In this document: one piece after another, positions 3,387 through 63,487 of the stretch
Numbering within the stretch: position 1 is the first letter of the stretch
Layout: every line of letters starts with the position of its first letter
NCBI GenBank assembly: GCA_951406725.2
Contig: OX597814.1
Span: 206,708,001 to 206,772,000 of the forward strand
Direction of reading: 5' to 3'
From: Octopus vulgaris
Lineage: Eukaryota
DNA: 64,000 bases
Program-made: the position numbers and the translations under genes
The notes under the pieces: generated by a model
What the model was told of the DNA's origin: nothing
Seen by the model: only the letters and a program-made list of their open reading frames with translations
Database searches by the model: none

Positions 3387-3468
3387 AAATTTGAAGAATA
3401 TCTCCAAAATAAAGACGAAAATGAAGGAATGATGGATAAACAGGAAAAGGAAAGATTTCATTCAAAAG
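3387..3468 (+). CDS. Exon A1: last helix of an upstream macrodomain plus linker (KFEEYLQNKDENEGMMDKQEKERFHSK)
   Basis: ttttacag|AAA...TCAAAAG|gtaaac, 82 nt, phase 0 to 1. Paralogous to 16757-16838 and 52358-52412. Confidence 0.8.
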
Positions 3469-10000: not shown

Positions 10001-13000
10001 AGTGATATTAGTAGAGGCCAAATCCCATGGAGAACTAGCCTGTAGATTTAGGGAAGCTCTGAAGGAGACCAAACTCGACATTAAGATTGTTGAAAAGCCA
10101 GGGAACTCCGTCAGATCATAACTATGTAGGATGTACCCCTTTAAGAATACCATATGCACCAATGATAACTGCATGGTATGTAGGATTAGCCCTGGCATTA
10201 ACTGTAGAACTCGAAATGTAGTTTACAGCATAGGATGCTTAGAAGGTACTTGTAAAGACATGAACATGACTTACATAGGGGAGACATCTAGGAGCATAGC
10301 TGAAAGACTAAATGAACATTTGAGACAATATGACAACAAAAAGCAGTCCTCCATACTTTACCAACATCCCAAAGACCACCGTAGAGGCAACTTGGGTCAA
10401 CTTGACATCCGCATCTCATCCAAGCAATCAAAAGACCCAACACTCAGACAAATACGGGAGTACGTCCTTATAAATGAAACTTTCCTAATACTAAATAGGA
10501 AATATACATCGTAGATACCATACGCCCATACCCACAGTGTACACAGGTAGAGTAGAATAGTTAGTGGGCTGTTATGTAGATAGATGTATGTATGTGTGTG
10601 TGTGTGGTTACATATGTGTATATGCACATGTATGTAAGCATATGGATATGAGAATAAACAGATCAACATACAGATGGATAGGTACATAGGTTATATGAAC
10701 AAACAAGCACACATACACAAATGGATACTGAAACACAAGAACATATGTACACACACGCTTTACTCCACACAAGGACACATATGGAGATACGTGTCCACAC
10801 ATATAGAGATGCACATCCATACATACAAACATGGTACAAAGTGGCAAAACACACACACACACACACACACACAATGAGACAGAGGTGCATATATACACAA
10901 ACACACTCACACACACATACACAAAACATACGCAGACACGGACATGCAAGCACATGAATATGCAGATTACATACATACAGATGCACACACATACATACAT
11001 ATATACATATGCATACACACACACATGCATGCATAGACACACACACACACTGACCCACACACATGCGCACAAACAAACAAAAAGGAATGCAGTGTAAATA
11101 ACGGACAGAGTCAAGACTATTGAAAAGGTTGCAAGATGCAACGAAAATTTTAAGAAAAAAAAATGAGAAATAAGTGGAAATTTTTGGCAGTGAGTGTGTT
11201 AAATTATAAGGCACGAAAAGAAAATGACTCTCCCCAGACACAACAGAATATGCTTCAACACACAAACTCACATAAAGAATCTTGCAAACCAAATCCAAAC
11301 ATGAAATACATATACGGACGTTAAGTGATGATGACATATGTGTGTGTGTGTGTGTGTGTGTATAAAGTGTACATATGTTGATATTTGTTTATTTTTTTCA
11401 GACACCACATCATCAAACACATCTCTTCCTGGCTCGCAAAAGGAAACCTCTTCTGTGGCACCCAGACCTAATGAGACACCCAGAGAAAATGATGGCATCA
11501 AAATACAACTATTGATTGATTCAATTTCTAATGCATCTGTGAGTAAATAGATTCACTTAACATATTTACCTTTAATTGTTATTTCATTTTCAACTGAGGA
11601 CTCATTACAGTTAATTAAAACATTTTCTCAATCAAACTCAAACATTTTATTTCCTTCACATCTGATATCTTGAGTATATCTTTTGCTAACTTTAACAACC
11701 TCAAACTTACTACAGCCATTCTGAAAGAGCCTTTCTTAACAACAACATCAACTGCAACAATGTATCTCTTTTCTCTCCATGGAATATTCCTTTGCTGTTT
11801 ACCATTAATTACTTTTCTAGGTTGATGTCATCGTTAACAGCACCAATAGAAGCCTCCGGCTTAACATTGGTGCTATCTCCAAATCTATTCTCAATGCTGC
11901 TGGTCCACAGATACAAGATGAATGTAACCAGAAATTTCGTCGAAGTATTTCTACATCTGAAATTGCCATCACTAAAGGATATAAGCTCAACTGTAAGAAT
12001 GTATTTCATCTGGTATTACCTGGCTGGTATGAATATCATTCTGATTCAGTAAGTATCAATCATATTATATTGATTTATTGAAAGAGTTAATGTTTGAAGG
12101 GAACCTTATGCATGTTGTGTGAGAATCATAAAGCAAATGTCAGCATCCTGTTTAATATTTGTTCTTCCAAGTTATCATTGGAAGGAAGCAGAAGATATCG
12201 ATGAACAGGACACTTTTATATATAAATAGAAGGAAAAAAGCCTCATGGCCTAACAACAGTTATGTGACTGATAAATAAGACTATATTAAAACATATTTCT
12301 GTGTTTTACTCTCTGTATTGGTGAGTTTTTCTCTGTCATGGCACGAGCACTAGAGAGGTTGTCATGTCCTCAACAACACTAAAGACTCCTCTTGGGTCTG
12401 CATTGTCTCTCTTCATTCACCAACCATTTTACACGGTGGATGGGGTCTGTTTAATTGTAGCAGCATCATGAGTGAGGTTGCCTTGTCTCTTGCAGGACGA
12501 AAGAGTGATAGGAATGACAGATGTGTTTAGAAGTGGTAGGAGTGAGAGGAGTTGTGAGAGGAGGATATATTTATTACAACTTAATGGTTTCTTCCTGTAA
12601 TTAGGAAAATAATTTAATAAAATGTTCATTATCAATTACTAAACACTTATTTTTTTAGATTCTGGCAAACTTGACTCGAATAATAACCACTTGTCTGGAA
12701 ACTGCTGAGAGAATGGGAGCAAAAAGCCTGGCATTTCCTATATTAGGGGCTGAAATGAAATACCCCATTGGAAAACTACCCAGAACAATGTATGAAGCAG
12801 TGAAAAACTACTCAGATCAAAATTCAAGCCAGATCAAAGATGTTTACTTTGTTGTTTTACCTGAAGAAGACAGAGAAATAGCAAAGGTTGGTTGATGTTT
12901 TTGTTGTTTGTTGTTTGATGTTGATATTTTTGGAATTTACCAAAAGCATATTCTGCAAAAAATGAAGAAAATAGAAACAAGAATCTGGAATCATTTTATA

Positions 13001-16000
13001 AATTTCCCCGCATGACATCCATATGCCTTCTGTCCTGACAAGCTTACTTGGTCTCATCACCACTGTAGCACATTTTGAGAGTCCAAACTCCATCTTGATA
13101 TCATTCACAAAAATCTGCACAGACTGGATTAAGCTGTCCAGTTCTGTCTCACTATTTGTTAACAATTTTGAGTCATTCCTGAATGCCTGCTGGTAAAGTT
13201 TTCGCTTACCTCTTCCCACATCAAACCCCAACTTTGTCTTCTGCTGTATTTCACTTAAGGGGTTTTATTCACAGTGAAAAAAAATCAGTGGAGACACACT
13301 GTTCCCCTGGAAGAGTCCTCTGTTGATATCCACCTCTGCCAGTACTTTTCATACTCTTCCATATAAAGCTTTTCATGTGTTTTGCTACTCCGTATATTTC
13401 TTTAGTTCTTGCTGTCCAAGATTATGTTATCAATCATTATTATTATTGTTGTTGTTGTAGTTGATGTTGTGTGAGAGTAGAGTGCCCCCTGGCGAGAATG
13501 GACTGGGCCACTATATATAAAAAAGTAGTAGTGGTCTGAATAAGTGTGGAAGTTCGGATTGGAGGGCAATTCATGCTAGTTCTACAGTTCATAAGTTGAT
13601 AGTCAAAGCTGGAGTTCAAAGTTTACAGTTCGAGTTAGCATGTTGGTTTGTTGGTTGTTAAAGGATTGTTGTTATGTTCTGCGTGGATACTGCCAGTTTT
13701 TCATTACACTGTTGCAGTGTATTTGTTTATCCATGAGGATAAACATATCTGGCAACAAGGATTGTTTGAAACTTCACAGGAAATAGCTTCAAGAGAAGCA
13801 ACAGCAACAACCACAAGAGCTGCAAAAACAAATACTACAACATCAACAACAGTAATTGAGTTTTACAGTCAGTGAAGTCCGCAAGTCCAGTAAGATTGTT
13901 TATGCCAGATGGCACGGCTAACACAATTTCTAAATTTACGTATAATCCAGAGGAGAATATTATGTCTCCCGTGTATTATAGAAGATATGAGGAAATTTTT
14001 AACAATGAGTGCAAGTCACGGTCGGAGGAGGAGTAAGGCTTTCACTACACAAGGTAGCTCCTGCCAAACATGAGCAGTACTGTAACTTTATTCTGCCCAG
14101 AAAGTTGAGTGGGATTGATTTCCAAGAAAGCGTGGAATTGTTTTCAAAATTTTGTTTGTAAAAGTTCATTGTTGAGCGCTTTAATGGAGTAGTCAGCCAT
14201 ACGTGTGAAAATTTCAAACTTCAGCATCTCACTCAGGATATGTTCAAATCACTTACCTTCATGTAAGGACTTATAGCACTTGAAGACATTCAGGCAAGGA
14301 TTCTCTTGAAAATGGAGCAAGCAAACCAGGATTCATCTCTACAGACCCTCACTGAAGAACGTCAGACTATAGTAAATGATGTGAAAATAATGGCGGATAA
14401 AGACTCTGCAAAACTTCAAATGTGTTGCCCTGGAAAGCAGAATCCAAAAAAGTATCAGGCCCCAAACTGTGTTATGGTTATGGAGGCCTACACTACAAAA
14501 AGGATTGTCCTTTTAAAAACAAAAAGTGCTATAGTTGTCATAAGCTGGGACACAGGAGTTCTCATTGCAGAACAAGACTGCAAGGCTCAAATACAAAAAG
14601 TTCTAAGGTGTTTTCAGCAGAGATCGATTGTGATGGAGAAACAAGAAAATTCGTGCATGAAAGATAAATGATGTGAATACCAAATTACAGTTAGACTCAG
14701 GTAGTGACATCTTCATTATAAATGCAGATACTTGGGAAAAATTGGTAAACCGAGATTACGCAAAACAGCGAAAATAGCATGTGGTGTAACGGGCGACAAA
14801 TTACATTTGATGGACAAAACATGTATCAACATCACATTTCGAGGAGAGACACGTGAAGCAAAATTATTCGTCTGTTTGGTACAGATTGGCTAGAACTGTT
14901 CAATTTATGGAACCTCCCTGTAAATCTTTACTGCAATAAAATAAATGGTTGTCATGTTAAAAACAAGTCTACAGAAGAACTGAAGGAAAAATTGGAAAAA
15001 AATGTTCCTGCAAGTGTTATTTAAAAGAGTGTTAAGAGAAGCAGGGAATGAATCAAAATGTCATTAACTGCGGTTGACCGGTGTGTTTATTCTTCCTGTT
15101 TTGGGGTGGGGGACAGCTCAAATGAATTTATTTTTCTGTCAAAAGTTGTTTGCATTTTCCCCGTCACCATTGGAGAAAGCCGAACAGAACATGGTGAGGC
15201 CTATATGTGAAAGAGGGGGAGAGATCGAGGCTCAAATACAAAATGCTTTAGGTTCTGTCTAATGACATACACATAAATACATTCTTATATATTTATGATG
15301 ATGATGATGATGATATTTCAGTAACAGCTTTTGAAAAAATACAATAAAAGTAACGAGAACAGAATGCATCCTCTTCATCACCATCATCTCCATCACCACC
15401 ACCACCACCCGTGTGCGATAGAATTTGTGGAGTTAGATATTCTATGGCTTGACGCCTTTCCTGTCACCAACCCTCACCTCGTTCCAAGGGAGGTAACTAT
15501 TTCTGCATTTTAAAAACATCACAAACTATTAGAAACAAAGGACACTGCTTGCATAAAAGGGACACTCGTTTACAGCTAACAAATAATGTAAAGGCAAGGA
15601 GACACACACACATATGTATGAATGACAGGCTTATCTCATTTACTGCCTGTCAGACCCAATCACAGAGCTTTGATTGGCCTAAGGCTATAGTTAAAGACAC
15701 TTGCTCAAGGTGCCATACATTGAGACCGAACCTAAATCAAGGTAATTAAAAGTAATAGCATCAGAAGCAGTATTAATACCAAAAGCAATCTTTATATCCA
15801 ACTAAATGTGGATGTTGTGTTAGAACCTCAAATACTGCCTTATTTACCTTGAGAGGACCTCTCATATGGACGTACGGTCCATAAATGCATGCAAATTTAT
15901 ATTGTTGGTAGACAACAATCATCTTCTAAAGGCAACAGAACTGCCAGATCATGTATTTTCGCTCTGCTCAGGTTCATCAGTGACAGACACCCTGTAGCAA

Positions 16001-17411
16001 CATAACAGCGAAATCTCCCTGTCAACGATATATAGACAGTGATGTCACAAATAGCCTGAAGGCTTATTAAAGATAATTAATAGCAACAGAAGCAGTGTTA
16101 ATACCAAAAGGCATTCTTTATGTCCATATGCTGTAATGAAGAAATTAGGGAAATTCCTGTCCACTGTAGAACTGTTTTAGAAGTTCTTTCTTTTTGAATC
16201 TTTTCTCTTTTCCTTTGTCATCTCTCTTATGAATGACCATGATCCTAATTGTTGGACCTCCTCCTTCTCCTTCTTGCTTACAATATGAAAATAATTACCT
16301 TGTTCTCTGCTTTTGTTCCTCAAATATTCTTGGCTACACAAGATGCACCAAAGAACCTCAACTTCAACATTCTTGATAGACATTTCAACAGCAAACACAA
16401 GACTCAGCAGTTTTAATCAGAATGGTGATTGGAGAGAAGAAACAATACAACTTCAGCTACATGAAGACACCTTTGCCACATGTTTAACTTCACTAACACC
16501 ACATCAGTGGTCAGTGTGGAAGGTTTTTCTGCCACATCCACTATAATACCATGTCTCCCAGTAGACTGGAAGGTCGTGGATGGAATATCTTTGATCTGAG
16601 TGACAAAGTAATTTTCCTCATTTCCTTATTACTGATTAGAAAGAAATCATTAATATTTCAAATATTTTGTTTGTCTTTTGTTAAATTGAATCTCTTCTCT
16701 TTAAAAAAAGCAAAAAAATTAAACAAAAATGATTCTCATGGTTTTGAATTTTACAGAAATTTGAGGAATATCTCCAAAATAAAGACGAAAATGAAGGAAT
16801 GATGGATAAACAGGAAAATGAAGGATTTCATTCAAAAGGTAAACAATTTGTTTGTTGATATTGAATATTATGGTGTTTTGTCATACCGTCTCTATTAAAC
16901 ACTGTTTATTATAAATATGATTAATGTTAATATCATTATTATCATTCTGTGCCAGTGGCACATAAAAAGCACCACCCGACTGTGGCCGTTGCCAGCACCA
17001 CCCGACTAGCCTCAGTGCTGGTGGCACGTAAAAAGCACCATCCGATCGTGGCTGTTGCCAGCTTCACCTGGCCCCCGTGCCGGTGGACGTAAGAAGCACC
17101 ATCCGTCCATGACCGTTTGCCAGCCCCGTCTGGCATCTGTCCCGGTGGCACATAAAAAGCACCATCCGATCGTGGCCGTTGCCAGCCCCGTCTGGCACCT
17201 GTGCCGGTGGCACGTAAAAAGCACCCACTACACTCACTGGAGTGGTTGGCGTTAGGAAGGGCATCCAGCCATAGAAACACTGCCAGATCAGACTGCGCCT
17301 GGTGCAGCCTTCTGGCTTCCCAGACCCCAGTTGAACGGTCCAACCCATGCTAGCATGGAAAGCGGACACTAAATAATGATGATGATTATTATTAATTATT
17401 AATGATTAATG

Positions 17412-25603: not shown

Positions 25604-28600
25604 TGTTGTGTCTGGGGGGAGGGTCATTTTCTTTTTGTGCCTTATAATTTTACACACTCACCGGTGAAATGTCCGCTTAATGTAGAAACTGTGAAGAACG
25701 TAATGGAGAGCCTCCAGCAAATAGCTAACTCCATCCACCAAAGTATCAAGGTAACTATAGATTAAACCCCACTAAGCACCCCAACAATGGACTCCCTGTA
25801 CTTGATACTGAACTTGGGTTAGAGACTGTGAACAAAAGAGTGCAGCTCCTCCACTCTTATTACATGGAACCCATAACTTCAAACTATGTCGTTCACAAGA
25901 ACTCACCTTTCTCACACAACATGGAAATTTAACCATACTGATAGCAGATTTAATTAGAATAATGAACAATGTGTCCCCACTATGCGAACCCTATGAAACG
26001 ACAAAACACATACAGAACTTTATGCACCGCATGCAGTTCTCTGGATATGATCAAAAAGATAGGGTTCGAGTGTACAGGGGTGGAAGAAATAAATCTGATA
26101 ACATTATATACGTAATGATACCAGTGGTACCTGCCCTAGATATAGAAACAAAGAATGGAATAGGATACAAAGCACTTGTGACAAAGGAAACAGGGTGAAC
26201 ACATGGTATAAAAGTGAGAAATATCAAGGAGTGATGTTTGTAGAGGCCAAATCCCATGGAGAACTAGCCTGTAGATTTAGGAAAGCTCTGAAGGAGACCA
26301 AACTCGACATTAAGATTTTTGAAAAGCCAGGGAACTCCGTCAGATCATAACTATGTAGGACGTACCCCTTTAAGAATACCATATGCACCAATGATAACTG
26401 CATGGTATGTAGGATTAGCCCTGGCATTAACTGTAGAACTCGGAATGTAGTTTACAGCATATGATGCTTAGAAGGTGCTTGTAAAGACATAAACATGACG
26501 TACATAGGGGAGACATCTAGGAGCATAGCTGAAAGACTAAATGAACATTTGAAACAATATGACAAAAAAAAGCGGTCCTCCATACTCTACCAACATCCCA
26601 ATGACTACCATAGAGGTAACTTGGGTCAACTTGACATCCGCACCTCATCCAAGCAATCAAAAGACCCAACACTCAGACAAATACGGGAGTACGTCCTTAT
26701 AAATGAAACTTTCCTAATACTAAATAGGAAATATACATGGTAGATACCATACGCCCATACCCACAGTTTACACAGGTAGAGTAGAATAGTTAGTGGGCTG
26801 TTATGTAGATAGATGTATGTATGTGTGTGTGTGTGGGTACATATGTGTATATGCACATGTATGTAAGCATATGGATATGAAAATAAACAGATCAACATAC
26901 AGATGGATAGGTACATAGGTTATATGAACAAACAGGCACACATACACAAATGGATACTGAAACACAAGAACATATGTACACACACGCTTTACTCCACACA
27001 AGGACACATATGGAGATACGTGTCCACACATATAAAGATGCACATCCATACATACAAACATGGTACAAAGTGGCAAAACACACACACACACACACACACA
27101 CAAGGAGACACAGGTGCATATATACACAAACACACATGCACAAACACGGACATGCAAGCACATGAATATGCAGATTACATACATACAGATGCACTCACAT
27201 ACATACATATATACATATGCATACACACATGTATACATACACACATGCATACATACACACACACATGCATGCATAGACACACACACACACTGACCCACAC
27301 ACATGCGCACAAACAAACAAAAAGGAACGCAGTGTAAATAACGGACAGAGTGAAGACTATTGAAAAGGTTGCAAGATGCAACGAAAATTTTAAGAAAATA
27401 AAAATGAGAAATAAGTGGAAATTTTTGGCAGTGAGTGTTTTAAATTATAAGGCACCAAAAGAATATGACTCTCCCCAGACACAACAGAATATGCTTCAAC
27501 ACAAACTCACATAAAGAATCTTGCAAACCAAATCCAAACATGAAATACATATACGGACGTTAAATGATGATGATGATGATGATGATGATGATATATATCT
27601 TTGTGAGTGTGTGTGTGTGTGTATAAAGTGTACATATGTTGATATTTGTTTATTATTTTCAGACACCACATCATCAAACACATCTCTTCATGGCTCGCAA
27701 AAGGAAACCTCTTCTGTGGCACCCAGAACCTAATGAGACATCCAGAGAAAATGATGGCATCAAAATACAACTATTGATTGATTCAATTTCTAATGCATCT
27801 GTGAGTAAATAGATTCACTTAACATATTTACCTTTAATTGTTATTTCATTTGCAAATGAGGAATCATTACAGTTAATTAAAATATTTTCTCAATCAAACT
27901 CAAACATTTTATTTCCTTCACATCTGATATCTTGAGTATATCTTTTGCTAACTTTAACAACCTCAAACTTACTACAGCCATTCTGAAAGAGCCTTTCTTA
28001 GCAACAATATCAACTGCAACAATGTATCTCTCTTCTCTCCATGGAATGTTCCTTAGTTGTTTACCATTAATTACTTTTGTAGGTTGATGTCATCGTTAAC
28101 AGCACCAATAAAAGCCTCCAGCTTAACATTGGTGCTATCTCCAAATCTATTCTCAATGCTGCTGGTCCACAGATACAATATGAATGTAACCAGAAATCTC
28201 GTCAAAGTATTTCTGCATCTGAAATAGCCATCACTAAGGGATATAACCTCAACTGTAAGAATGTATTTCATCTGGTATTACCTTACTGGAATGAATATTA
28301 TTCTGATTCAGTAAGTATCAATCATATGATATTGATTTATTGAAAGAGTTAATGTTTGAAGGGAACCTTATGCATGTTGTGTGAGAATCATAAAGCAAAT
28401 GTCAGCATCCTGTTTAATATTTGTTCTTCCAAGTTATCATTGGAAGGAAGCAGAAGATATCGATGAACAGGACACTTTTATATATAAATAGAAGGAAAAA
28501 AGCCTCATGGCCTAACAACAGTTATGCGACTGATAAATAAGACTATATTAAAACATATTTCTGTGTTTTACTGTCTGTATTGGTGAGTTTTTCTCTGTCA

Positions 28601-30850
28601 TGGCACGAGCACTAAAGAGGTTGTCATGTCCTCAACAACACTAAAGACTCCTCTTGGGTCTGCATTGTCTCTCTTCATTCACCAACCATTTTACACGGTG
28701 GATTGGGTCTGTTTTATTGTAGCAGCATCATGAGTGAGGTTGCCTTGTCCCTTGCAGGACTAAAGAGTGATAGGAATGACAGTTGTGTTTAGAAGTGGTA
28801 GGAGTGAGAGGAGTTGTGAGAGGAGGATATATTTATTACAACTTAATTGTTTCTTCCTGTAATAAGAAAATAATTTAATAAAATGTTCATTATCAATTAC
28901 TAAACACTTATTTTTATTAGATTCTGGCAAACTTGACTCGAATAATAACCACTTGTCTGGAAAATGCTGAGAGAATGGGAGCAAAAAGTCTTGCATTTCC
29001 TATATTAGGAGCTGGGTTATTGAAGTACCCTGTTGAAGAACTACCTAGAACTATGTTTGAAGCCGTGAAAAACTACTCAAACCAAAATCCAAACCAGATC
29101 AAAGACGTTTGCTTTGTGGTTTATCCTCAAGACACAGAAGTAGTAAAGGTTGGTTGATGTATTTGTTGTTTGTTGTTTGATGTTGATATTCTTGGAATTT
29201 ACCAAAAACCAATATTCTACAATAAACAAAGGAAAATAGAAATGATCCCTCATTTACAGCCCTTGTTCCATTTTTCATGGGTGCAACATTTTGACTGGCT
29301 CCAAAGAGCCACAAGGGTTTATTGAACCCCAGTGTCTGCTTTGGCATGGTTTCTATGGCTGGATGCCATTCCTAATGCCAACCACTTCACAGCATGTCCT
29401 GGGTACCTTTCTTCATGCTACCTTTAATGCTGTTCATTATATCTTGTTGTGCTTTATCCTTTCATTATACCATTTCCCATCACCAAATTCTTGCTTCTGA
29501 AATATTGCATTGTAACATTTGAAGCTAAAAATGTTTTGCTTGTTGTTGTTGTTGTTGTTGTATTTATTGTTGGACCCTGAGTCAGTTCTGATTCTGCAGA
29601 CTGAAGGTCAAAGATGCTTGTATGTCTTTCTTCTCTTCTTTTCTTTCCATTCCTCCTCCTCCTCCCTCCTCCCCCTCCTATTCCTAGCTGCCACAACCAA
29701 GATCCATTTCACAAATGCCAAACCAGTTACCTCTGTCCCCCTTCCCCCTTTCTCTCCGTTTCTGGTTCTGGGACTCTTGCAATAACATCAGTTGTAATTG
29801 GGTGGAACTTTCTCCCTATCCAAGTATGGAAATCTCCAAAATCTAACATCTGATATGGTCAACAGTTCAGCAAAATAGCCTTGGTCAGCAAACCCTATAC
29901 TTTATTGAGCATCAAAAGCCAAAATGGATGGAATATGTCCACAAATTTCCTCTTTGGTCCAGTGCCCTTTAAAAAGCCTGGTGAATTTACCATCAAGGTG
30001 ATGTTGAAGCTCTTTACACTTGACCCTGACAAGCCTTGTCCACTTTGAAATATTCAATTTCCAGATGTTCTGAAGAATGTTTCAAGTAATCCAAGTTGTT
30101 TCCATTGTGCATGAAGAAGTCCCAAATAAAGACCCAAGATACATTCTCTAGCTAAGACTTCCCACATTTATTCACAAAACACTATAAGGTAGCAAGGTAT
30201 GATGTGAGAGAGATTTGGCTGTTAATTTTAGCAGATCAAGTGACCACTTAAAGACCTCTTTCTTTGCTTCTTCTTGCAACTGTTCTTCATTCCCATGCAG
30301 TCAGTTATTAGTGTGAGGTAATATTTATCCCCGTTTAAACAAGGATGTTCCCTGAGAACCAACTTTACTATGGTAATTGCCATGAGAGAAACCCTCACAG
30401 GCTTTTTGGAATGCCCTCTTCTTCATATCAGTAGCAAAAAGATAAATCTTCAGCACCAAGGCCACCAGTTCATGTGATTTCCACCTTGTTTGAACTTATC
30501 GATGATGGACAATCGACTGCTAGAGACAGCAGTAATTCATCTCCCCTCCAGCGTTATATAGATTGACACTCCCTAGTGCTCATGTGTCCATCATTGACAA
30601 GGTCCAAACAAGGTGGATATTATGTGATCTTGTTGTCCCAGTGCTGGAGGTAGTAGGGAATTATCTTGCCCCAAAAATCCAATGTTAGGGTTTAGCTCAT
30701 GGCATCTACCACAGTAAAGTTTGTACTAACAGGACACCCATGCTTAAGTGGGGATGAAATATTGCATCTCTTGGCTTTACTACTGCCTCTGTCACTAATG
30801 TGCTTATGCATCAAATTTCTTTAGAGATGTGTAAACAAATATTAACACCT

Positions 30851-50600: not shown

Positions 50601-53526
50601 TCCTATCAGTACAGAGGGGTTCTACTAAAAGGGTAGGTTCTACTGATTAGGGATTTGATAGGGTTGCCTGGCCTTTCAACAAACTTAATCCTTAGCTTAA
50701 GTTTGTCTAGAGCCCTTCTAGAGCAGTACACCAGTTCACCTCTAGTGGTGGTGTTGACGAACATGACACTCTGGTATTTATGGCTATCATACCAAGAGCT
50801 GGCCTTCCCTATTTTCTTCTTAGTCCTTTCAATGGTGTTCCATGACTTGCTCCTATAGAGTGGGCAAATCCCATTCCTATCATCACATATGATAGTTTCA
50901 AATTTCCTCATGGCTCCTTTGTATACTCTGATCCTTTCTTTATGGCTGTAACCTGAGAACTGCATGCGGTGAATGAAATGTTGTATGTGTGTCTTTAATT
51001 CTGTCGGGTTGCACATGTGGGACACATTTTGCATTATTCTGATGTGGTCTGCCATCAAAATATTAAATTTGGCATTGTCCGCGATAGCTGAGTTCTGGTG
51101 GATCAAGTATTTGGAGGATATAGGTTTGGCATAGTGTGAATGAAGGACTTGGGTTTTATTATTTTCAGTTTCCAGGCAGAGTTCTGTATCTAGTACTGGT
51201 AGTCTATGGTTAGAGTTTTTAGTAGGGTAGTGACCTTAATACTCTGGTGGATGGAGTTGGTTATTTGCTAGATACTCCCAATAGTATTAGTTTCTATTTC
51301 TATTTCAAGAGTACTCTCTTGTGGGGGTGCCCTTACCACTATGTTGATATCATCAACATAGCAAGAGTACATGTTCACGAGTATGGAGTTTTGTGCCAGA
51401 TGTTCCTTAAGCCTTCTGTCCCACCATACCATGAAAAGGTTGGCCACATCACCGGCGATACTAACGCCAATGGCTGCCCCCTCGTCCTGGGCATATATTT
51501 TGTTGTTAAACTTAAATGTGTAGACTTTGAGGGTAACTCTTATACTAGCTCCTAGTGCATGTGCAATAATTTTCTTTACCTGAGTATGGCTCTGGTCACT
51601 CTGATCCATCTGCTCCATCTCTCTATAGGGGTCTTCCTAGCCATAGAAGTAATTCTTCAAGCAGTCTATTCATATACTAGAAATAACAGCCAAATCTCAC
51701 ACAAACTCTTTTCCACACATTTTTTAATAAATTTTTTTACCTGTGCTATTCATATGGCCTAGAAGTCGATTATATTGGAATTTTTTCGGAGAAAGCTATT
51801 TGTAGGGGTGGGGATGAGTTTTGACAAAAATCCCAAACTGGTTGGATATGTTTCTCAGGCGATAAAATTTCAGAGAAATTTCCCATGGTAAAAAGAGGTA
51901 TTATTAATACTGTATGGCAAAAAGTTTTTATTTTTTATGCAACTGAAAGTGTTGGAAATTTCCAAAGTGTTTTATTTTTTTTCTACAAAATGAAACTTGA
52001 AAGAACATTTACAAAAAATATGAGTACTGAAATAACAGGAAGTCTTTCCTGGATCTTGAATATTTTTAAACGTACAGCGTGGAAGATGAAACTGTGTTTA
52101 CAGAGATAATGAATTAGATAGAATAATGAAATGAACTAATAAGGTAATTATGGTATGTGCTGAAAAAGAGAGGTTTAGATGTGCTCAGTTCAAAAACAAG
52201 ATTGCTTGTCTGAATATCTTCTGATTTTCTACTCTGTTGGTGAGGTCTTAAAATGAGTAAATTTAAAACAATATTCATGCATTGTAATTAACAGAAATTA
52301 ATTAGGATATTATGTCTTTGCTTGGGTGATGATAAATTAATTGTTTACTTCTAACAGAAATTTGAAGAATATTTCCAAGGAAACACAACAGGTAGTTCAG
52401 CTGCATCATCAGGTAAATACTTTCTTTTTATTTATCTTAAATTTTATTTAGGAAAAAACAAGTGTCTCTTTTCATCATCATCGTCATCGTCACCATCTTC
52501 GTCATCATCGCCACTGTCATCATCATCATCATCATCATTATTCAGAAGGTGAGCTGGCAGAATCATTAGCATGTTGGGCATTTTGTCTGTCCTAACGTTC
52601 TGAGTTCAAATTCCACCTTTCATCCTTTCAGGGACACAATGAAATAAGTACCAGTTACACACTGGGGTCAGTGTAATCAAGAATCCCCTCCTCCAAAACT
52701 TCAGGCCTTGTGAGTTTAATAAAAAAGAGTATTATTATTATTATTGAGTGAGAGAGCAATGCATGCCAACAAAGTGACCGTGGGGTACAAATATACAAAG
52801 TCCAGTATACCCATCATGACTACCCATCTGATAAGGGTACACCAGGCACATGCATCACGACCATATGTGTGTGACATTATGATCTCATAACAAGATAAAC
52901 AGTGCATGACCCTTGCAGGTGGGGCCCAGTTAGAAATTCCTTCAGATCGAGAAGCCCAAATAGCTCAAAAGATTACTGAATAAGGTTTGTTTAAGGATGT
53001 TGAATGAAACACTTATATTTCCAAAGGGGAATTATTCAATACCCCAAAAATTCCCTTTCAACACATGGCTATGATGCTCCCCCACTACTTCTGCTCATGA
53101 TCAGAGATGCACATACCATCAGCCACTAAGGGACATACTCAACTGGTTATGGTCAAACAACTAACAAGCAAATCTGTGGTATTGAGCTGAATATTTGCTG
53201 TAACCCATCTTTCATACCAAGACAAAACAATGTACATGATAACACTTCTAATCAGTTAAGATCAGAAGCCACGAGAGCCACTGCCTGGTACTGCATCATC
53301 ATTATTATTATTATTATTATCATTATTATTCAGTAGTATATTTTTTTATATCGTGCTTTCACTTCACTACCGAGCGCAGCTCTGTGTGCCTTGGGTTTGT
53401 GCTGTGATTTGTTGTGATGCTCTGATGGTTATTGTATGGAAAGTGTTCTGCGTAGGATGTGTGCAGTGCCTAGTAGTGCAATTTTCTGTATGTTATATGT
53501 GTTTGTAAGTCCTGGTGTTATTGTTG

Positions 53527-53583
<57 letters not shown>

Positions 53584-56500
53584 TTAATATCATCATCATC
53601 ATCATCATCATCTTCTTCTTCTTCTTCTTCTTCTTCTTCTTCTTCTTCTTCTTCTTCTTCTTCTTCTTCTTCTTTCAATTTCATTTCCATTCCTTGCCAA
53701 GTGTCTTCCCAACATCTAGGACAAAAAAGTTCACTTTGTACATGTGGTAGGCCATTAAAATAAACATACCATTTACAAAGTCATATAAAAAAAGGGGAAA
53801 AAAGAAAAAAAAAGTAAACAAGGAAAATAAAAGGAAAAAGGAAATAAAATTCACAGTGGCAATTCTCTTCTCAGTGTGTGTGATGTGGCAGTTAAAACAA
53901 TCTTAACAAAAATTTTAAAAATAAACAAAGAAAACAAAAGGGAAAAAAAGAAAGAAAATTCACAGCAACAATGCTCTTCTCAATACGTGTGACCAGTTAC
54001 CAGTTAAGACAATCTTTTGCACTTCCTGCATGGATGGTAAGCCAAGGATCATTCTTAAATAATTTTCAGTTCCTTTTTTGATCATTCCAAGTGCTCCTAC
54101 AATCACTGGTATTGTAGCCATCTTGAGATGCCACATCTTTTTGATTTCAATCAGCAGATCTTTATATTTTCTGAGCTTATCAAATTCTTTTGCTGAGATA
54201 TCATAGACACAAAGTACGCTCACATCAATCAATAAACAGACTTTATTGTTTTGGTCTTTCACAACAATTTCTGGTTTATTAGCTTTGATGGTCACATCTG
54301 TACATACTGGGAAGTCCCAAAGAATCATTACATTTTCTCCCTCTCTAACAGCCTCAGGGTGGTGCTTGTACCATTTGTCAGCAGTTTTGATTTTATGATA
54401 CTGATACATTATCCAAAGTAGATATTGGCCAACACTGTCGTGTCTTGATCTCTACTCTACAGGTGGTAAAAACCTTGGATCAAGAGATTAGGTGGTCCAC
54501 TGTTTCAATCACATCCTTGCAGTATTAGCACTTTGGGTCTACACAATTTTTCATCACATTGTCTTGATAGTTCCAGGTCAATAATCTCTGCTCTTGGGCA
54601 GCCAAGATAAAGCCTTCACTCTCTGCCTTTAGCCCTGAGCTTTGTAGCCACTGATGGGTGTGCTTCTGGTCTACATCAGCTTGTTTGCTATGGGCCACAT
54701 ATTTGCCATGCTGGGGTTTTTGTTCCCACCAATCAACCAATTGTTCAAACGCATTTTGCTTTCCTATTGGTTTCACCTTCTTTGCAACTAGAGTTGTTGC
54801 ACTTCCCTCATGCTGTTCAACCTGGGTGTTTATGTATAAACTCACTTGAACATTTTTTGCTCTCCTTCATTACAGAAGGAAGCTTCTTGTCTTTCATGCT
54901 TTTCAATGAGATTTAGCATCCATTTATTAGATGTTTCAAGATATTTGGCCAGTCCAGTTGTGATGGTTTTGTAGGAGATTTCAAATCGAACCAAGCCTTG
55001 ACCTCCTTGAGCTCTGGGTAGGTAAAGACGATCTGCGTCGGCCTTTGGGTGGTGCATCTTTTTCCTTATTGATTTTCCTGTCAGTGTTCCTTATCTTGAC
55101 TGTGTCAACATCCAACTCCATTGAATGTGAGGTCTTCAGTTTCCCTTTCTGGAAAGTAACCGTAGCAGATTTATCAAGACCAAATTTCATCCCAATCATC
55201 ATCATTATCATCATCATCAAGATCGTTTAACGTCTGTTTTCCAAGCTAGCATGGGTTGGATGGTTCGATCAGGGTCTGGGAAGCCTGGAGGCTGCACTAG
55301 GCTCCAGTCTGATCTGGTAGTGTTTCTACAAATGAATGCCCTTCTTATGCCAACCACTCTGTGAGTGTAGTGAGTGCTTTTTATGTGCCACCAGTACAGG
55401 AGCCAGGGGAGGCTGGCAACGCCCACGATCGGTTGGTGCTTTTTATGTGCCACCAACATGAGTATCACAACTACAATTTCCATTTGATTTTTATTTTGAT
55501 GTTGATGTACTTGACTCAATATGTCTCCTCAAGCACAGCGATTCACCCTACGATCTAAGGTAAACACAGCAGGCTGTCCTGCGAGCCATGAACTCACTTC
55601 ATTTATCAGGACTTCACTGTCACAGCATATCTCCAGAGGTCTTGGTCTTTCGTCACTGCCTCTGTGAGGCCCAACGTTCAGAGGTCATGCCGGACTACCT
55701 CATCCCATGTCTTCCTGGGTCTACCCCTTCCTCTGATACCTTCAACTGTTTGGGAGTGGCACTTCTTCACACATCTCTCCTCATCCATCCTTAGTACATG
55801 ACCATACCAGCGCAAACTTCTCTCTTGCACGCCACATCCGATGCTTCTTATGTCCAACATTTCTCTCAGGGCACTTACACTCTGTCGTGTGTGCACGCTG
55901 ACATTACACATCCAGCAGATCATGCTAGCTTCATTTCTTTTGAGCCTATGCATATCCTCCACTGTCACAGCCCATGTTTCACTGCTGTGAAGAATGGCAT
56001 TTTGCACACTTGCATCATACAATCTACCTTTCACTCTGAGAGAGAGACCCTTTGTCACCAGTAGTGGTAGAAGCTTTCTAAACTTTGTCCAGGCTATTCT
56101 TATTCTAGTGGCAACACTCTCTGAGCATCCACCCCCACTACTAACTTGGTCACGTAGGTCACGGAAATTATCAACTACTTCTAGTTTCTCCCACTGGAGG
56201 TATGATGGAATCTGTTTTCTGAGTATCTGTGGTGTCTATTGCTCCTGTGCATCTGCTGCACATGAAAGCTATCTTCTCGGTTAACCTTCCTTTGATGTTG
56301 CTACAACTCTTATGCATCCATAGCTTACACTGGGTACATCTTAAGGAGTTTCTACCCACACCTTTTCTACAGATCAAGCAGGGCCACCTACCTGAAGGGG
56401 TGTTTGATGTGTTCACCTTCCTACTTACTAGAACTTTGGTTTTTGCAATGTAGACTCTAAGGCCCTTCAATTCTAAACCTTGCTTCCACACCTGAAATTT

Positions 56501-59500
56501 CTTCTCTTGTTCTGATAGTGATTCTGCTACAAGGGCTAGGTCGTCAGCATAGTGGAGCTCCCAGGCGCAACCTGTCTTGAATTCCTGTTATTGCCTGGAG
56601 GACTATAATGAATAAAAGGGGACTGAGGGCTGATACTTGGTGAACCCTACTTCTACCCGTAATTCTTCACTATATTCATTGCCAGCCCTAACCTTACCAA
56701 CAACATCTCTGGTTAAGGCGTGTACAGCCCTTATTAACCATTCGTCAATCTCCAGTTTTCACATCACCCACCAGATAAGGGATCGGGGGACCCTGTCAAA
56801 GGCTTTCTCCAAGTCCCCAAAAGCTAAGTTGAGGGGTTTATCTTTAGCTAGGTATTTCTCCTGCAGTTGTCAAACCAGGAATACGGCATCAGTGGTGCTT
56901 CTGCCTGGAACAAAACCGAACTGTATCTCATCTAAGCAGACTCTCACCCTAATGAGATGGGCTATGATCCCCTCTATCACCTTCATCACCTGATCCAGCA
57001 GTTTGATACCCCTGTAGTTATTTCTATCTAAAGCATCACTTTCACCTTTATAGAAGTTGACTATGGTGCTGTTACACCAGTCATTGGGTATGACTCCATT
57101 ATGAACTACCTGGTTTACAATGCGGGTGACTAGGCCATAGCCCACACCACCAGATGTTTTAAGCCTCTCAGCAGTGATTCCTAATGGGCTAGGGTCTTTT
57201 CCTGGCTTCATACCCTTAATTGCTTTATCTACATGGGAGCTGTCTGTTCGGATAGCTGGTCCCTCTACTGGGTCAACATTTGGCAGGTTTTCCTCCTCCC
57301 TTCATTCTCCACATTCAGCAGCCTTTCATAATAGCATTTCCAAGCTTCTTTCTTTTGAAAATCATTAAAAGCAAGTGCACCATCATCCATTCAGACACAT
57401 TTCTCTCCTGTGACATCACTATTTTCTCTCACATACTGTCTTGCAATCTGAAATACTTCAGTTCTTTGGTCCTCACGTTGCTTGACATTGACAAACTTCT
57501 TCTTTACCGCTTCACTCTTGGCTATGTATACCTGCTGCCCAGCCTCCCTTTTGGCTACCTGGTACAGTTCCCTGCTACCCACATCCCTCCAGGCTTTCCA
57601 GGCCTGTTTCTTTGATCTAATGGCCTTGTCTACTGTACTATTCCACCACTACGTAACTCTGGGTCTGGAAGGGACTTTGCACCATCCTCAGACTTGGTCT
57701 GTTGCACTCAGTAAGCTGTCCTGTAGGAATTTCCTGCTACCTTCTATGTCCGATGTCTGTAGCTCCACCTTCCTCTCTTCAAATTTCTTGATGAAGATGT
57801 CCCTAAATCTCTGACCATGTGAAGGTTTCTTTAGCCTTCAAATCCTTCTTTTTGGGATTGGTCTGCTTCTTGGTATCCTTCTGGCCTTGAACCTAAAGTC
57901 ACTAAGGACTAGCCTATGCTGTGGGGTACATTCTTCACCCGGGAGGGTCTTTGTATATAAGAGCAACCCTGTGTCCTGCTATCTGGTGAGGATGAAATCA
58001 ATCTGGCTAGCAGAGTCACCTGATTGATAGGTTATCAGGTGGCTGTCTGGCTTCCTAAATTTAGTGTTGCAGATTAAAAGGTTACATGCATCACAGAACT
58101 CCAGTAGTCTAGTTCCCTCATCGTTCCGAGCACCAATAACATGGCCCCCATGTACGCCAGTGAACATAACAGATTCCCGCCCAACATACCCATTAAAATC
58201 TCCAACCACAAAGATGAGGTCTTTGCCACTCGTCTTTGAGGTAGCCTGTAGAAGGGTATCATAAAAATGGTCCTTCTGAGCATTTAGTAGGGCCACTTGC
58301 GGGGGCGTAGGCAGAGATGATTGTAGCTGTGCTGTTCTGCAGGACTAGCCTGAGCTTAAGCACTCTATCGCATACCCTAACAACCTCTATGACTTTATCC
58401 ACCCATTCATCCACAAGGAGTATGCCTATACCCCCTACACCATCCATGTTACCTTGCCAGAAGACTTTATACCTATGTGCCTTGCCTGTGAGGACCCTAG
58501 CTGAAGCTCCTCTCCATCTTTCCTCTTGTATGCAGCATACATCAAAGTGTCTTTCTAGCATCTCTACAATCTCACTAGACCTACCTTTCAGTGTACCAAC
58601 ATTGACAGTGCCAACTCTGAAAACTGGGAAGGGAATGTGGGGTTAGGTTTGGGGAGGAGGGATGTTATTGTCATCACTAAATGCTTTCACATTATGTAGC
58701 AGTCCTTCAAGCTCAGTATCGTCTTTGCCACAGAGTTTTCAGTCATCCATATAAAATAGATGACTTGTTTTCTTGTCACCAATTTTATATCCATACCCTA
58801 TTCTGTTGAATTCATTTGTAAGGAGTATTAGGGCTATGCAGAAAATTGAAGGTGAAAGTGAGTCGCCTTGGAAAATTCCACAGTTGATATTAATATTTTT
58901 TGTGGTCAGTACCCCATCAGAGTTGTATAATTGGAGATTTGTATTTCACACTGAATATTGTGCTTCAGAAAATTTGAAATCACAGAAGAAATTAAGAAGC
59001 AATTTCAAGATCCATGAATGCTGTATGCTGTCAAAGACCACTGTGTAATCAATTCATGCAGCACTAAGATTTCTGGGTTTGTTATGACAGTTCTCAAGGA
59101 ACATGTGATTGATTAAGAGTTCATCTCTGCATCCATATGAGCCTCATCAGCCCCTATTTTTGTTCAGTGGGTTGAAAATATTGTTTTGTTTCCTTAATTT
59201 GTATGCATTCTCCACAGGGATGGATGTTGAAATTTTATATGTGTTAGAGAGACATGTTATGAGCCAATAGTTTTGGGGAAATTTGGTTTTCTTATTCTTC
59301 TGGAATAACCAATCGGTATTTTCATAGGATCACTCATAATTTCATTCAATGCCTGAACTTAATTTTCATGTGCACATGGGAGTGATGCGAGCCAGAAATT
59401 TGGCACCCTGTCATTACCAGGGGATTTCCACATATGAACCTTTGTGAGCACCATCCTCAGCTTTGCTATTGTGATGTCTTACCATGCTTGTTCTGGTAAG

Positions 59501-60415
59501 TTTTGGTAGGATCCTTCTGTATGTCTAACCCAGTCTTTATTTCCATGCATCACTCCAGATATTTTTCTAAAAGTTCCAACTTCTTCCATGGGAGTGGAGT
59601 CTTGAATGGTTTTCCCTATTTCTCAGTAGAATGTTTTTGCATTGGATGCAAACAGCTTATTTTGCTTTTCAGGAGAAAAACTAAGGCTTTCAGAAGTTAT
59701 AATGAAGGTTCAATTTAAATAATTAGTTTACGAAATTACAAAGATTATTTCAAAGATAGTATGGAAATTTTTAGCCATATCCATAATACCGACTACCAGC
59801 TTTTTCTAAATACATAAAACTGTACATCACTTCAAACAATATATGCATATACATATATATATATATGTGTGTGTGTGTGTGTATGTATATATATATGCAT
59901 GTATATAAATTAAGAAATGGAGTTAAACGCAGGTGTTATTCAAATCTTTTTACTTCTGACATGTTTCGAAGGAAACATTGGTACTATTTCTGAGGGAATA
60001 AAATGATGTAAAACAATGTAATCATCACATCATGGGAGAAAATAGAAACAAAACACATCAATAAGCCATTTTAACCGAATGTGATAACTGCATATATGAT
60101 GAAGGGGAATGCAAGATGATTACATTGTTTTACATCATTTTATTTCCTAAGGAATAATATCAATGTTTTCTTCGAAACATGTGTCAGAAGTATAAAGATT
60201 TGAATAACACCTGCTTTTAGCTCCATTTCTGAATTTATCTATGTCATTCAAAAACATTTCACTAAACCCTGGGACTTCTACCTTTAAAAATAGGACGTAA
60301 CATTCTTGGTACTTATGTGAATTTTTGCTACCCTGGTAAATATATATTTTTTCCATGTTATTTGTACACATTGAAAACATTCACATACATTTAGTTATAT
60401 GCATACATACATACA

Positions 60416-60447
<32 letters not shown>

Positions 60448-63434
60448 CACACATATATATATACATATCTGAGGCCATCATCATCATAATCTTTTAACAT
60501 CTATTTTCCATGCCAGCAATGGGTTGGATGGTTTGATATCGGTGCAAGGACTGTGTTGTGCTCTAATGTCTGCTTTGGAAGGAGTTCTTCACCACACCCA
60601 CAGCCCAACCCCACCTGCACTCCTACTACTACTACTAAACTATAGTAATCATTAGTAATTCAGTGTCCCTTGTTTATTCCCCAAAGTTTGCCAAAATATT
60701 CCTGTTTTTTATAAACTTTTAACAGAAAAAGGGTTCATAATTTTATTTTTGTTCTGAAATATTTGATTTCTGTTTGAACTTTAGAATCAGTCTTTGATAG
60801 ATGGTCATCAATGGGAGACAAGGAATTAATTAAAATCGTTCAAGTCACAAATGGACCAGAATATGATGACATCCAGGCCACTTTCCGTCAGAATTTGCCT
60901 TCCTATCATATAATGAAAGTTTGTATTTTTATTTCTGTTTATAAACAATATTTGATGGTTAATTGTTAAAACAAAATATTAAGAGACATTTTGTTTGTAT
61001 AAAAGACTTAAATCTCATAGTATGAACTTATTTTGGAATGGTTCCATGCAATTTTGGATATTCACAAAAAAATCTTTGCTCAACAAAAATACCTCTGCTT
61101 TAACTTCTTGCATTGAATTGTAAATGCAACACCATTTTGCAGCTAAACTATTATGCCTTACCAAAATTTACAGTTGAATCAAAATTGGTATCAAATAAAA
61201 AAGCAAAAAAAAAAGCAGATAGGGTTGGGGTTTTTTACCACAAACATTATTTCCTTGTCAAAGAAGTGAACTGATTGTCTTTTCATAAATGTATTTTCCT
61301 TTCTACAGATTGAGAGAATTCAAAATAAAACATTGTACCAGAAATACCAAGCATTGAAAAAACAATTTGAGGCAGATAATCCAAATACTGAAATTGAAGT
61401 TGATGGCCTTTGGCATGGTACTACTGTAGGATCTGTTGATAGAATAAATAAATATGGTTTCAACCATAGCTCTTGTGGTAAAAATGGTAAGTACATATTC
61501 TCAAAGTGGCAATAGTAGTGTCCTCTACCCACCCTTCCTATTGTCCTGAGCTGGACAGTCACTCTCCACATTGATTGCTGTTTAGAATCCTTTCTCACAC
61601 AGAGAGGATGTCATGTTGCTCACACATTCCATGTTTGGCATCGTTTCTACTGCCAGGTCCCCTTCCTAACATCTTCTGCTCTAGAGTAAATCAGGTGTAT
61701 TTTAGTATTGTGGAACCAACACTTTTATTTGGATTGGGAGGAAGGGTCTGTCCCCATCCATTAATGTTCCTCTTGAACCTTTGTAAATGAAAATATTGCA
61801 GGAAAGATAAGAGAAGGGGTGGAATTCCAGAGGGATAATGTTATGAGAAAGAAGGACTAGGTATAGTGGAGAGTCTGCAGGACTGGACAGAAATATCAAC
61901 AAGCGAACACCAGGCCTAGCAATCACCATTCTGAGTTTGTCAATTCTAGATATACTGAGATAATCAATACAGTGTTGTTAACTCTCATTGAAATATTCAA
62001 TGTCTGCTACGGCCTAGAAATTGGTTAAGGGACATTTAATAACTGTACAGAAATCTGATAAACCAGCAGTGGTACCATCACAGAGGTAACTCCATTTAGA
62101 TATCTCAAATGATCTTCTCTCACTAACTCTTTTATCATCTTTTGGAATTAGATTTTGATGTGTATGGTGAATATGGATATGGGGTGAGTAGAAGAGTGGG
62201 GTTCCACAAAATGCCACCCAAACAAGTTCAGTGGTAAATATTGGCAAGGGACAGGCTCTCCCAATGATAAAACATCATTTCCTGAAACCTGTTTGATGTC
62301 ACATGGTGTCATGTGATGACAAAATGTCCTGGATTCAAAGAGATAAGCTCAATATCTCGTGTGATCACTATTAGTGTTGATTACTACCCGGCATCTTCTG
62401 CACATTGAATGCACCAAACGATTGATGAAAGCCATGGGGATAGCAGCTGACACTCTGTTAAAACCTGCAGTGAGTTGTCTCTGAGTTTTCAGTCTTGGAC
62501 GGATGTCATTTAGCCTTCTTTAGGGTTTCATCCCACAGGTGCTCTATAGGGTTTGAGTCTGGACTGAAGCCAGTGTCTAGATGTTGATGTTGTTGGAGGA
62601 AGCCTGTTGTCAACCTGGCAGTATGGTCACGGGCATTGTTATGTCAGAACACGTAATTCCAACAACAGGCAAAGTATGGCACAATGTGAGGTCTCCAAAT
62701 TTGGTCAATATAGCAAGCAACAGTTACTCCATTTCCTCAGCCTTCACCAAAGTTTTGGAAGGCCACCAGTTCAGCATATATATATATATCATCATCATCA
62801 TCATCATCATCATCGTTTAACATCCACTTTCCAAGCTAGCATGGGTTGGACGGTCTGACTGAGGACTAATGAACAAGAGGCTGCATCAGGCTCACTCTGT
62901 TGTGGAAAAGTTTCTATAGCTGGATGCCGTTCCTAATGCTAACCACTCCGAGTGTGTAGTGGGTGCTTTTACATGCCACCGGCACGAGGGCCAGTCAGGT
63001 GGTTCTGACAACAACCATGCTCAAAGGTATTTTTACATGCTACCTTCATTGGAGGTAGTCCGGTGGAACTGGCAATGACCATGCTCAAATGTTGTTTTTC
63101 ACGTGCCACCAGCGGAGGAGCCACTATATGGCCCTGGCAACGATGATGCTCGGTGTGCTTTTAATTTTCCACTGGTACAAGTGCCAATCACGCAGTAGTG
63201 TCATCGGCCACGTCAGCGATTTTGATTTCACTTGCCTCAACAGGTCTTTGCAAGCAAAGTTTATTGTCCAATGAATGAGTGGGGAGGGGGTATTCATAAG
63301 TGGGCTGCTTACACCCACTGGCATAGGCCATGGGCTGTGGTCTCACTTGGCTTGTTTGGTCTTCTGAATCACAGTATATCTCCAAAGGTCCTGGTCACTA
63401 GTCATTGCTTCAGTGAGCCTCAATGTTCAAAGGT

Positions 63435-63487
<53 letters not shown>

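What the first reader, a model, noticed from the sequence alone, without database searches (positions are those of the whole stretch)
12659..12985. Unequal-crossover breakpoint inside exon D1 makes a chimeric macrodomain exon
Seen: D1 and D2 differ by one base in the first 22 codons. From codon 23 (about 12725/28987) they differ at more than 20 codons, including roughly 9-10 synonymous changes and two compensating codon indels, and intron similarity ends about 100 bp later. The intron after D1 carries the same Gypsy integrase-end junction that precedes A1. Inference: D1 is the 5' part of D2 joined to the 3' part of an older upstream paralog, produced by unequal crossover between coding exons.
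Basis: partly seen in the sequence, partly recalled or inferred. Interest (0 to 1): 0.7.

Follow-up and report, generated by a model that had tools for sequence, protein, structure and literature searches.

The report
Recombined last macrodomain in octopus PARP14
An octopus PARP14-like gene carries seven tandem copies of one ADP-ribose-reader domain; the sharp switch seen inside one exon is real, but it most likely marks where the last copy had its front part overwritten by its neighbours, an ordinary result of recombination between repeats.

Summary
In detail: D1 and D2 differ at 1 of 66 bases in codons 1-22, then at 25 aligned codons (10 synonymous) plus two codon indels. Both exons belong to an Octopus PARP14-like gene with seven tandem macrodomain units. 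Six (D-4 to D1) share D1's 3' half and following intron; only the last, D2, has the other type.

The adjacent upstream exon D0 matches D1 in both halves. Against an unexpanded neighbouring paralogue, D1 shows no switch inside the exon (p=0.82) and D2 does (p=0.003). The O. sinensis orthologue already has a D1-like middle unit, and its last unit lacks most alleles that D2 shares with middle units. So D2's front part was likely overwritten by middle-unit DNA. D1's unit is chimeric only through an older founding crossover somewhere in 11459-12726. The Gypsy junction is a 2,062-bp internal deletion and does not date the exon switch.

This is concerted evolution of domain repeats, a known process. 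The scan noted this gene before on adjacent DNA. Interest 0.3.

The parts
3387..3468 (+). Exon A1 (82 nt), linker
   Evidence: AG..GT, open frame
11402..11538 (+). Exon B1 (137 nt), last-unit type; linker and first strand of the macrodomain
   Evidence: B-to-C joint 11538>11821 in contigs of 3 of 4 runs; shares alleles with L034, not with D-4/L007
11821..12048 (+). Exon C1 (228 nt), N-terminal half of the macrodomain, hypervariable among copies
   Evidence: Pfam Macro E=3.7e-12; pN/pS 1.65-1.97 among copies
12659..12886 (+). Exon D1 (228 nt), X type with the one-residue-shorter loop; first-unit type from end to end
   Evidence: 29 of 32 informative sites match L007; D-to-A joint skipping 3870 nt in contigs of 4 of 4 runs
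12714..12726 (+). D1 equivalent of the recombination boundary
   Evidence: Best split 12713|12727
12887..15019 (+). X-type post-D intron: dispersed repeat fragment (13002-13347) and decayed Gypsy-like gag region
   Evidence: 12887-13500 is 97-100% identical in the six X-type array copies and one copy at 8.97 Mb; DUF7083 and zinc-knuckle hits
15019..15020 (+). Junction of a 2,062-bp internal deletion in the decayed retroelement
   Evidence: shared with the introns after D-3 and D-2, absent after D-4, D-1, D0
16757..16838 (+). Exon A2 (82 nt)
27663..27800 (+). Exon B2, 138 nt in this assembly (one extra base, out of frame)
   Evidence: contigs over it lack the base but may be paralogues
28083..28310 (+). 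Exon C2, patchwork of middle-unit and last-unit alleles
   Evidence: Pfam Macro E=7.6e-13
28921..29148 (+). Exon D2 (228 nt), the likely recombinant: middle-unit-type codons 1-19/22 joined to a Y-type 3' part with the full-length loop
28976..28988 (+). Right edge of middle-unit-type DNA in D2
   Evidence: D2 is X-like at 5 of 5 sites to the left and L034-like at 22 of 27 to the right
52358..63770 (+). Downstream exons up to the PARP catalytic domain and stop codon (approximate span)
   Evidence: tblastn of P0003; open frames; Pfam PARP hits at 61270 and 63417

Best explanation
D1 and D2 are the sixth and seventh of seven tandem macrodomain units of an Octopus PARP14-like gene, and the switch at codons 19-23 most likely marks where the last unit (D2) had its 5' part overwritten by DNA from middle units such as D1 through unequal crossover or gene conversion. 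Shown: the seven-unit array, the X/Y exon types, the boundary, splicing of family transcripts, an unexpanded two-unit paralogue next door, and an O. sinensis orthologue with the same X..X..Y order. Inferred step 1: an old unequal crossover between the two units of the ancestral gene, somewhere in 11459-12726, made the first middle unit (last-unit exon B plus first-unit exon D 3' half) before the two Octopus lineages split. Inferred step 2: further mispairing multiplied and remixed the units. Inferred step 3: in this lineage exchange ran from middle units into the last unit, up to 28976-28988, leaving its 3' half native in most of its length.
For: Array map and exon frames. The inverted neighbour gene (P0008 exons; L007 = X, L034 = Y) has only two units and shares introns at about 90-98%. 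Middle units and D2 share the exon-B type and upstream flank with L034; D-4 shares its own with L007/L005. Inside exon D, D1 against L007/L034 has no switch (2446 of 3000 permutations reach the score); D2 has one at 12713|12727 (8 of 3000). At 11 residues of exon C plus D codons 1-31 the last units of O. sinensis P0003 and P0009 agree and D2 differs. At 8 of these D2 has the middle-unit residue, 7 of the 8 already stand in O. sinensis middle units, and 3 are private to D2. O. sinensis unit 3 matches D1's exon C at all but 5 residues. Upstream, D2's unit nests among middle units (2-4 differences in 806 columns from D0, D-3, D-2; 31 from the neighbour gene).
Against: O. sinensis evidence is protein only, from gene models. 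Its last exon D differs from the neighbour gene's by just 3 residues, so it could itself have been converted from that gene. The L034 alleles at 12690-12713 are shared with distant copies (L035, L044, L050) and could be an imported patch. D2's 3' half is not purely L034-like: 29051-29100 is closer to other copies. Exon C2 keeps last-unit residues, so this is patchwork, not one clean crossover. Triplets with D1 as child of D2 and D-4 or D0 are also significant: such tests are symmetric and cannot give direction.
Confidence: 0.65

Rival explanations
1. One reading: the founding unequal crossover fell inside exon D at 12691-12726, so D1 (and all five middle copies) are the native 5' part of D2 joined to the 3' part of D-4.
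For: All five middle copies switch from D2-like to D-4-like at 12690|12727, 0 of 2000 permutations each. Middle units do carry last-unit exon B. D2 and all middle copies share G12678, found in 1 of 29 outside copies.
Against: The left-hand signal near exon D is mostly D-4-private change. D1 is L007-like across the exon. The O. sinensis last unit and L034 have E18/L19 while all X-type and middle units have R18/M19; this reading needs one more conversion event. R7 also occurs in other X and Y exons of three Octopus species, so it is a weak marker.
Confidence: 0.2
2. No exchange at this point: the step only reflects an old X/Y difference confined to the 3' half, with the 5' half kept alike family-wide.
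For: The step is seen in L007 vs L034 and L005 vs L034 too; the C-D intron is only 2-4% divergent across the family.
Against: Outside Y-Y pairs differ equally in both halves (11.0% vs 10.8%), while D1-D2 differ by 1.5% in the 5' half. D2 switches nearest relative at the boundary, from array copies and L009 (0-1 differences) to L034 (2 differences, next best 6). D2 shares alleles with D-3/D1 found in 0 of 24 outside copies (11939, 11944, 12038).
Confidence: 0.07
3. D2 is an assembly chimera of near-identical repeats.
For: Exon B2 has an extra base that looks like a blend of two paralogous alleles.
Against: D2's 5' side has its own substitutions (equivalents of 11739, 11953, 11976, 12353, 12586) and its unit has its own deletion of about 555 bp, so it is no copy of any one middle unit.
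Confidence: 0.08

Closest known systems
Octopus sinensis PARP14/PARP15-like gene models XP_029633854.1 (P0003) and XP_036364536.1 (P0001)
   Same: Same exon cassette, same X..X..Y order, D1 97% identical, same C-terminal PARP domain.
   Different: Five exon-C units in the P0003 model against seven here; its last exon D has Q7/E18/L19 where D2 has R7/R18/M19.
Vertebrate macro-PARPs PARP14/9/15 (PMC4038475, 12 passages seen; PMC10221186, 7 passages seen)
   Same: Tandem macrodomains before a PARP domain; best solved match is human PARP14; positive selection on macrodomains and gene gain and loss are reported for them.
   Different: They have two or three long-diverged macrodomains. Here at least eight, seven of them near-identical repeats that exchange DNA. 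'Gene conversion' has 0 occurrences in the PMC4038475 main text.
[quoted passage not shown]
   Same: Unequal crossing over changes repeat number and homogenises units; linked there to host-pathogen interaction.
   Different: No mention of macrodomains in the main text ('macro' 0 occurrences; supplements not read). Here one exon (C) stays far more divergent than its introns.

Membership tests
Macro-PARP (PARP14-like) | Tandem macrodomains (PF01661) | tested here: met
   D1 alone scores below the Pfam cut-off (15.8 of 22 bits), exon C1 above it
Macro-PARP (PARP14-like) | C-terminal PARP catalytic domain in the same gene | tested here: met
   linkage rests on the orthologous gene model, not on one full-length read
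Macro-PARP (PARP14-like) | Uninterrupted reading frame | tested here: inconclusive
   All A, C, D exons and six of seven B exons are in frame; B2 has one extra base
Macro-PARP (PARP14-like) | ADP-ribose binding or transferase activity | not testable with these tools
   Needs biochemistry; the fold model of P0010 had loop confidence under 50 in both repeat types
Unequal-crossover chimeric exon, D1 as recombinant | Upstream parent with matching 3' half and intron | tested here: met
   Five upstream copies at 95-97%
Unequal-crossover chimeric exon, D1 as recombinant | That parent's 5' half is divergent | tested here: inconclusive
   Not met for D0 (3/66); only 4/66 for D-4, mostly private change
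Unequal-crossover chimeric exon, D1 as recombinant | D1 switches between independent X and Y references inside the exon | tested here: not met
   p=0.82 (L007), 0.14 (L005), 0.62 (L009) against L034
Concerted evolution of tandem domain repeats | High repeat identity, changed unit number, statistical recombination signal | tested here: met
   own max-chi-square triplets, GARD/RDP/PHI not run

The most novel reading that the evidence does not exclude
Recombination pours variable middle-unit sequence into the last macrodomain but stops about ten codons short of the loop that separates the two repeat types. Selection would thus keep one full-loop, ADP-ribose-binding domain beside the catalytic domain, while six short-loop repeats (Gly-to-Glu plus a one-residue deletion, probably binding-dead) with a hypervariable exon C act as a remixable recognition or decoy array.
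Probability: 0.2. Interest if true: 0.55.

Novelty: new member of a known kind. Interest (0 to 1): 0.3.

Why it matters
As an event it is ordinary: recombination between tandem exon cassettes. It is a clear case of why a two-copy comparison cannot tell donor from recipient. The wider gene matters more. An invertebrate macro-PARP family with about 51 exon-D copies, repeat-number change and a fast-changing exon offers a testable model of immune diversification in cephalopods. The boundary mapped here gives a specific test of whether the last domain's binding loop is protected from homogenisation.

Tried and rejected
D0 as the divergent-5' parent: rejected. The Gypsy junction as a marker of the exon switch: rejected; it is a deletion in one lineage of intron copies. 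The D-4/D2 triplet as proof of direction: rejected after polarising sites with outside copies. Sequencing runs: no holder is on record as RNA; the laid contigs show exon joints but at 90% likeness cannot be tied to D1 itself. No listed contig had 31 or more bases on both sides of the D2 boundary (32 pieces shown, 436 not shown). A single donor for D2's 29051-29100 patch: none found, best 92%. Fold of P0010: mean pLDDT 57, both repeats show the macro pattern and match PARP14, loops unresolved. The 'R4' label for 13002-13347 was not tested against a family library; it is a dispersed repeat at about 79%. The 'LTR' has no second copy within its unit in the region searched. Literature searches listed no paper on octopus macro-PARP repeat expansion; one search listed 20 of 76 hits, all 4. 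No supplements were read.

Full report
Observation. D1 is 12659-12886 and D2 is 28921-29148, both 228-nt AG..GT exons. They differ at one base in codons 1-22. After that 25 of 53 aligned codons differ, 10 purely synonymously, with one codon gap in each. The step is beyond chance (1/66 vs 28/162, p=0.0007). Similarity ends at 12977.

What the gene is. The exons encode the C-terminal half of a macrodomain; exon C encodes the N-terminal half and PARP catalytic exons lie at 61-64 kb. The nearest named proteins are Octopus PARP14-like, 97% identical to D1. In 160 kb of upstream DNA there are five more units. Exon D copies lie at window positions -75842 (D-4), -52664 (D-3), -35675 (D-2), -21182 (D-1), -2785 (D0), 12659 and 28921. 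Each unit is A+B+C+D = 675 nt = 225 residues. A further, different macrodomain lies upstream at -94.7 and -83.4 kb. Contigs of runs guessed to be RNA show B-C, C-D, D-A and A-B joints; these prove splicing in the family, not in D1 specifically. A genome search lists 51 exon-D-like matches without internal stops.

Upstream copies with D1's 3' half and intron exist at 95-97%. The adjacent D0 is not divergent in its 5' half (3/66). Six copies (D-4 to D1) are one type, X; only D2 is type Y. The first copy D-4 has a different exon B and upstream flank, shared with L007 and L005, while the middle copies and D2 share theirs with L034. So every middle unit is a hybrid of last-unit exon B and first-unit exon D 3' half. 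A D-4/D2 triplet puts all five switches at 12690|12727 (0 of 2000 permutations), which looks like full support. Polarising with up to 29 outside copies weakens it: between exon C and the switch most sites are private to D-4, and only 12084, 12678 and 12690 join D2 with the middle copies. The step also exists between D-4 and D2 and between L007 and L034.

Direction. An inverted gene next door has the unexpanded form, one X unit (L007) then one Y unit (L034). Against this pair D1 is X-like at 29 of 32 sites with no switch (p=0.82), while D2 switches at 12713|12727 (5 of 5 X-like left, 22 of 27 Y-like right; p=0.003). The O. sinensis orthologue already has middle units, one matching D1's exon C at all but 5 residues, so the expansion and the D1 unit predate the split (inference). 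At 11 residues where the last units of P0003 and P0009 agree against D2, D2 has the middle-unit residue at 8, and 7 of those 8 stand in O. sinensis middle units. The simplest reading is flow from middle units into D2, ending at 28976-28988. Against it: the O. sinensis last exon could have been converted from the neighbour gene (3 residues apart), the L034 alleles may be an imported patch, and D2 has a further foreign-looking patch at 29051-29100.

The Gypsy junction. The decayed retroelement after D0 runs on into the window's first 1646 bases; after D1 it lacks 2,062 bp, which creates the 15020 junction. D-3 and D-2 share the deletion; D-4, D-1 and D0 do not. It shows that units were copied out of order, not where exon D recombined.

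Function. Y-type exons align without a gap to the PARP14 loop (D2 'ilgagllkyp' to 'AIGTGNLGFP'); X-type exons need a one-residue gap and have Glu in place of the second Gly. 16 of 45 copies examined have the short loop. G314E abolishes PAR binding by macroH2A1.1 (PMC5770377, 3 passages seen). That this glycine is the same position is my inference from the aligned ranges and recalled numbering, not a tested result. PMC10221186 (passages) places a catalytic motif in this 'loop 2'. Loss of binding in X repeats is thus predicted, not shown; the fold model did not resolve the loop. P0002 ends in short-loop repeats, so a full-loop last domain is not universal. Exon C has pN/pS of 1.65-1.97 among copies, and its non-synonymous divergence (6-12%) exceeds that of flanking introns (2.5-2.9%) in 5 of 5 pairs tested (p 0.014 to 3e-6), of 21 possible. 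Conversion from other family members inflates such counts, so diversifying selection is likely, not proven.

Comparison and verdict. It works like concerted evolution of domain repeats (PMC5100051, passages) in a member of the macro-PARP family, known for fast evolution in vertebrates (PMC4038475, passages). Two earlier notes of this scan describe the same gene from adjacent DNA. New member of a known kind; interest 0.3.

Noticed in passing
window 27663-27800: Exon B2 has one extra base near 27727-27729, which would shift the frame before the last macrodomain and the PARP domain. One contig each in X3 and X18 lacks it, but they may be paralogues. An assembly error is plausible.
   Followed up: partly
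window 9158-9277 and four upstream copies: A B-like pseudo-exon (about 75% to B, stop codon near its end) lies before B in the five middle units. It is removed from D2's unit by a deletion of about 555 bp with a 4-base microhomology.
   Followed up: partly
G000:C1, window positions -69694 and -64510: Two 82-nt A exons in a row after D-4; splicing both in would shift the frame, so one must be skipped.
   Followed up: no
window 19384-23513: 88-bp tandem satellite of about 4 kb, present in four of the six A-B introns; beside it those units differ by only 2-4 bases in 806.
   Followed up: partly
L006 (D-2), equivalents of 12792-12914: D-2 shares four substitutions and a 23-bp intron deletion with D-4 only: a second exchange inside exon D.
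   Followed up: partly
window 11821-12048 and copies: Exon C is much more variable than its introns, with excess amino-acid change.
   Followed up: partly
G000:C1 5.3-9.4 Mb, 206.6-207.1 Mb, 215.8-216.4 Mb; C29 31.8 Mb: 51 exon-D-like copies in four clusters; one examined copy (L012) is 1 base short.
   Followed up: partly
window 31878-32879: Open 334-codon frame with a mariner-type transposase match (PF01359, E=1e-24).
   Followed up: no
window 10122-10511 and 26465-26740: GIY-YIG domain fragments in the A-B introns, probably from a decayed retroelement.
   Followed up: no
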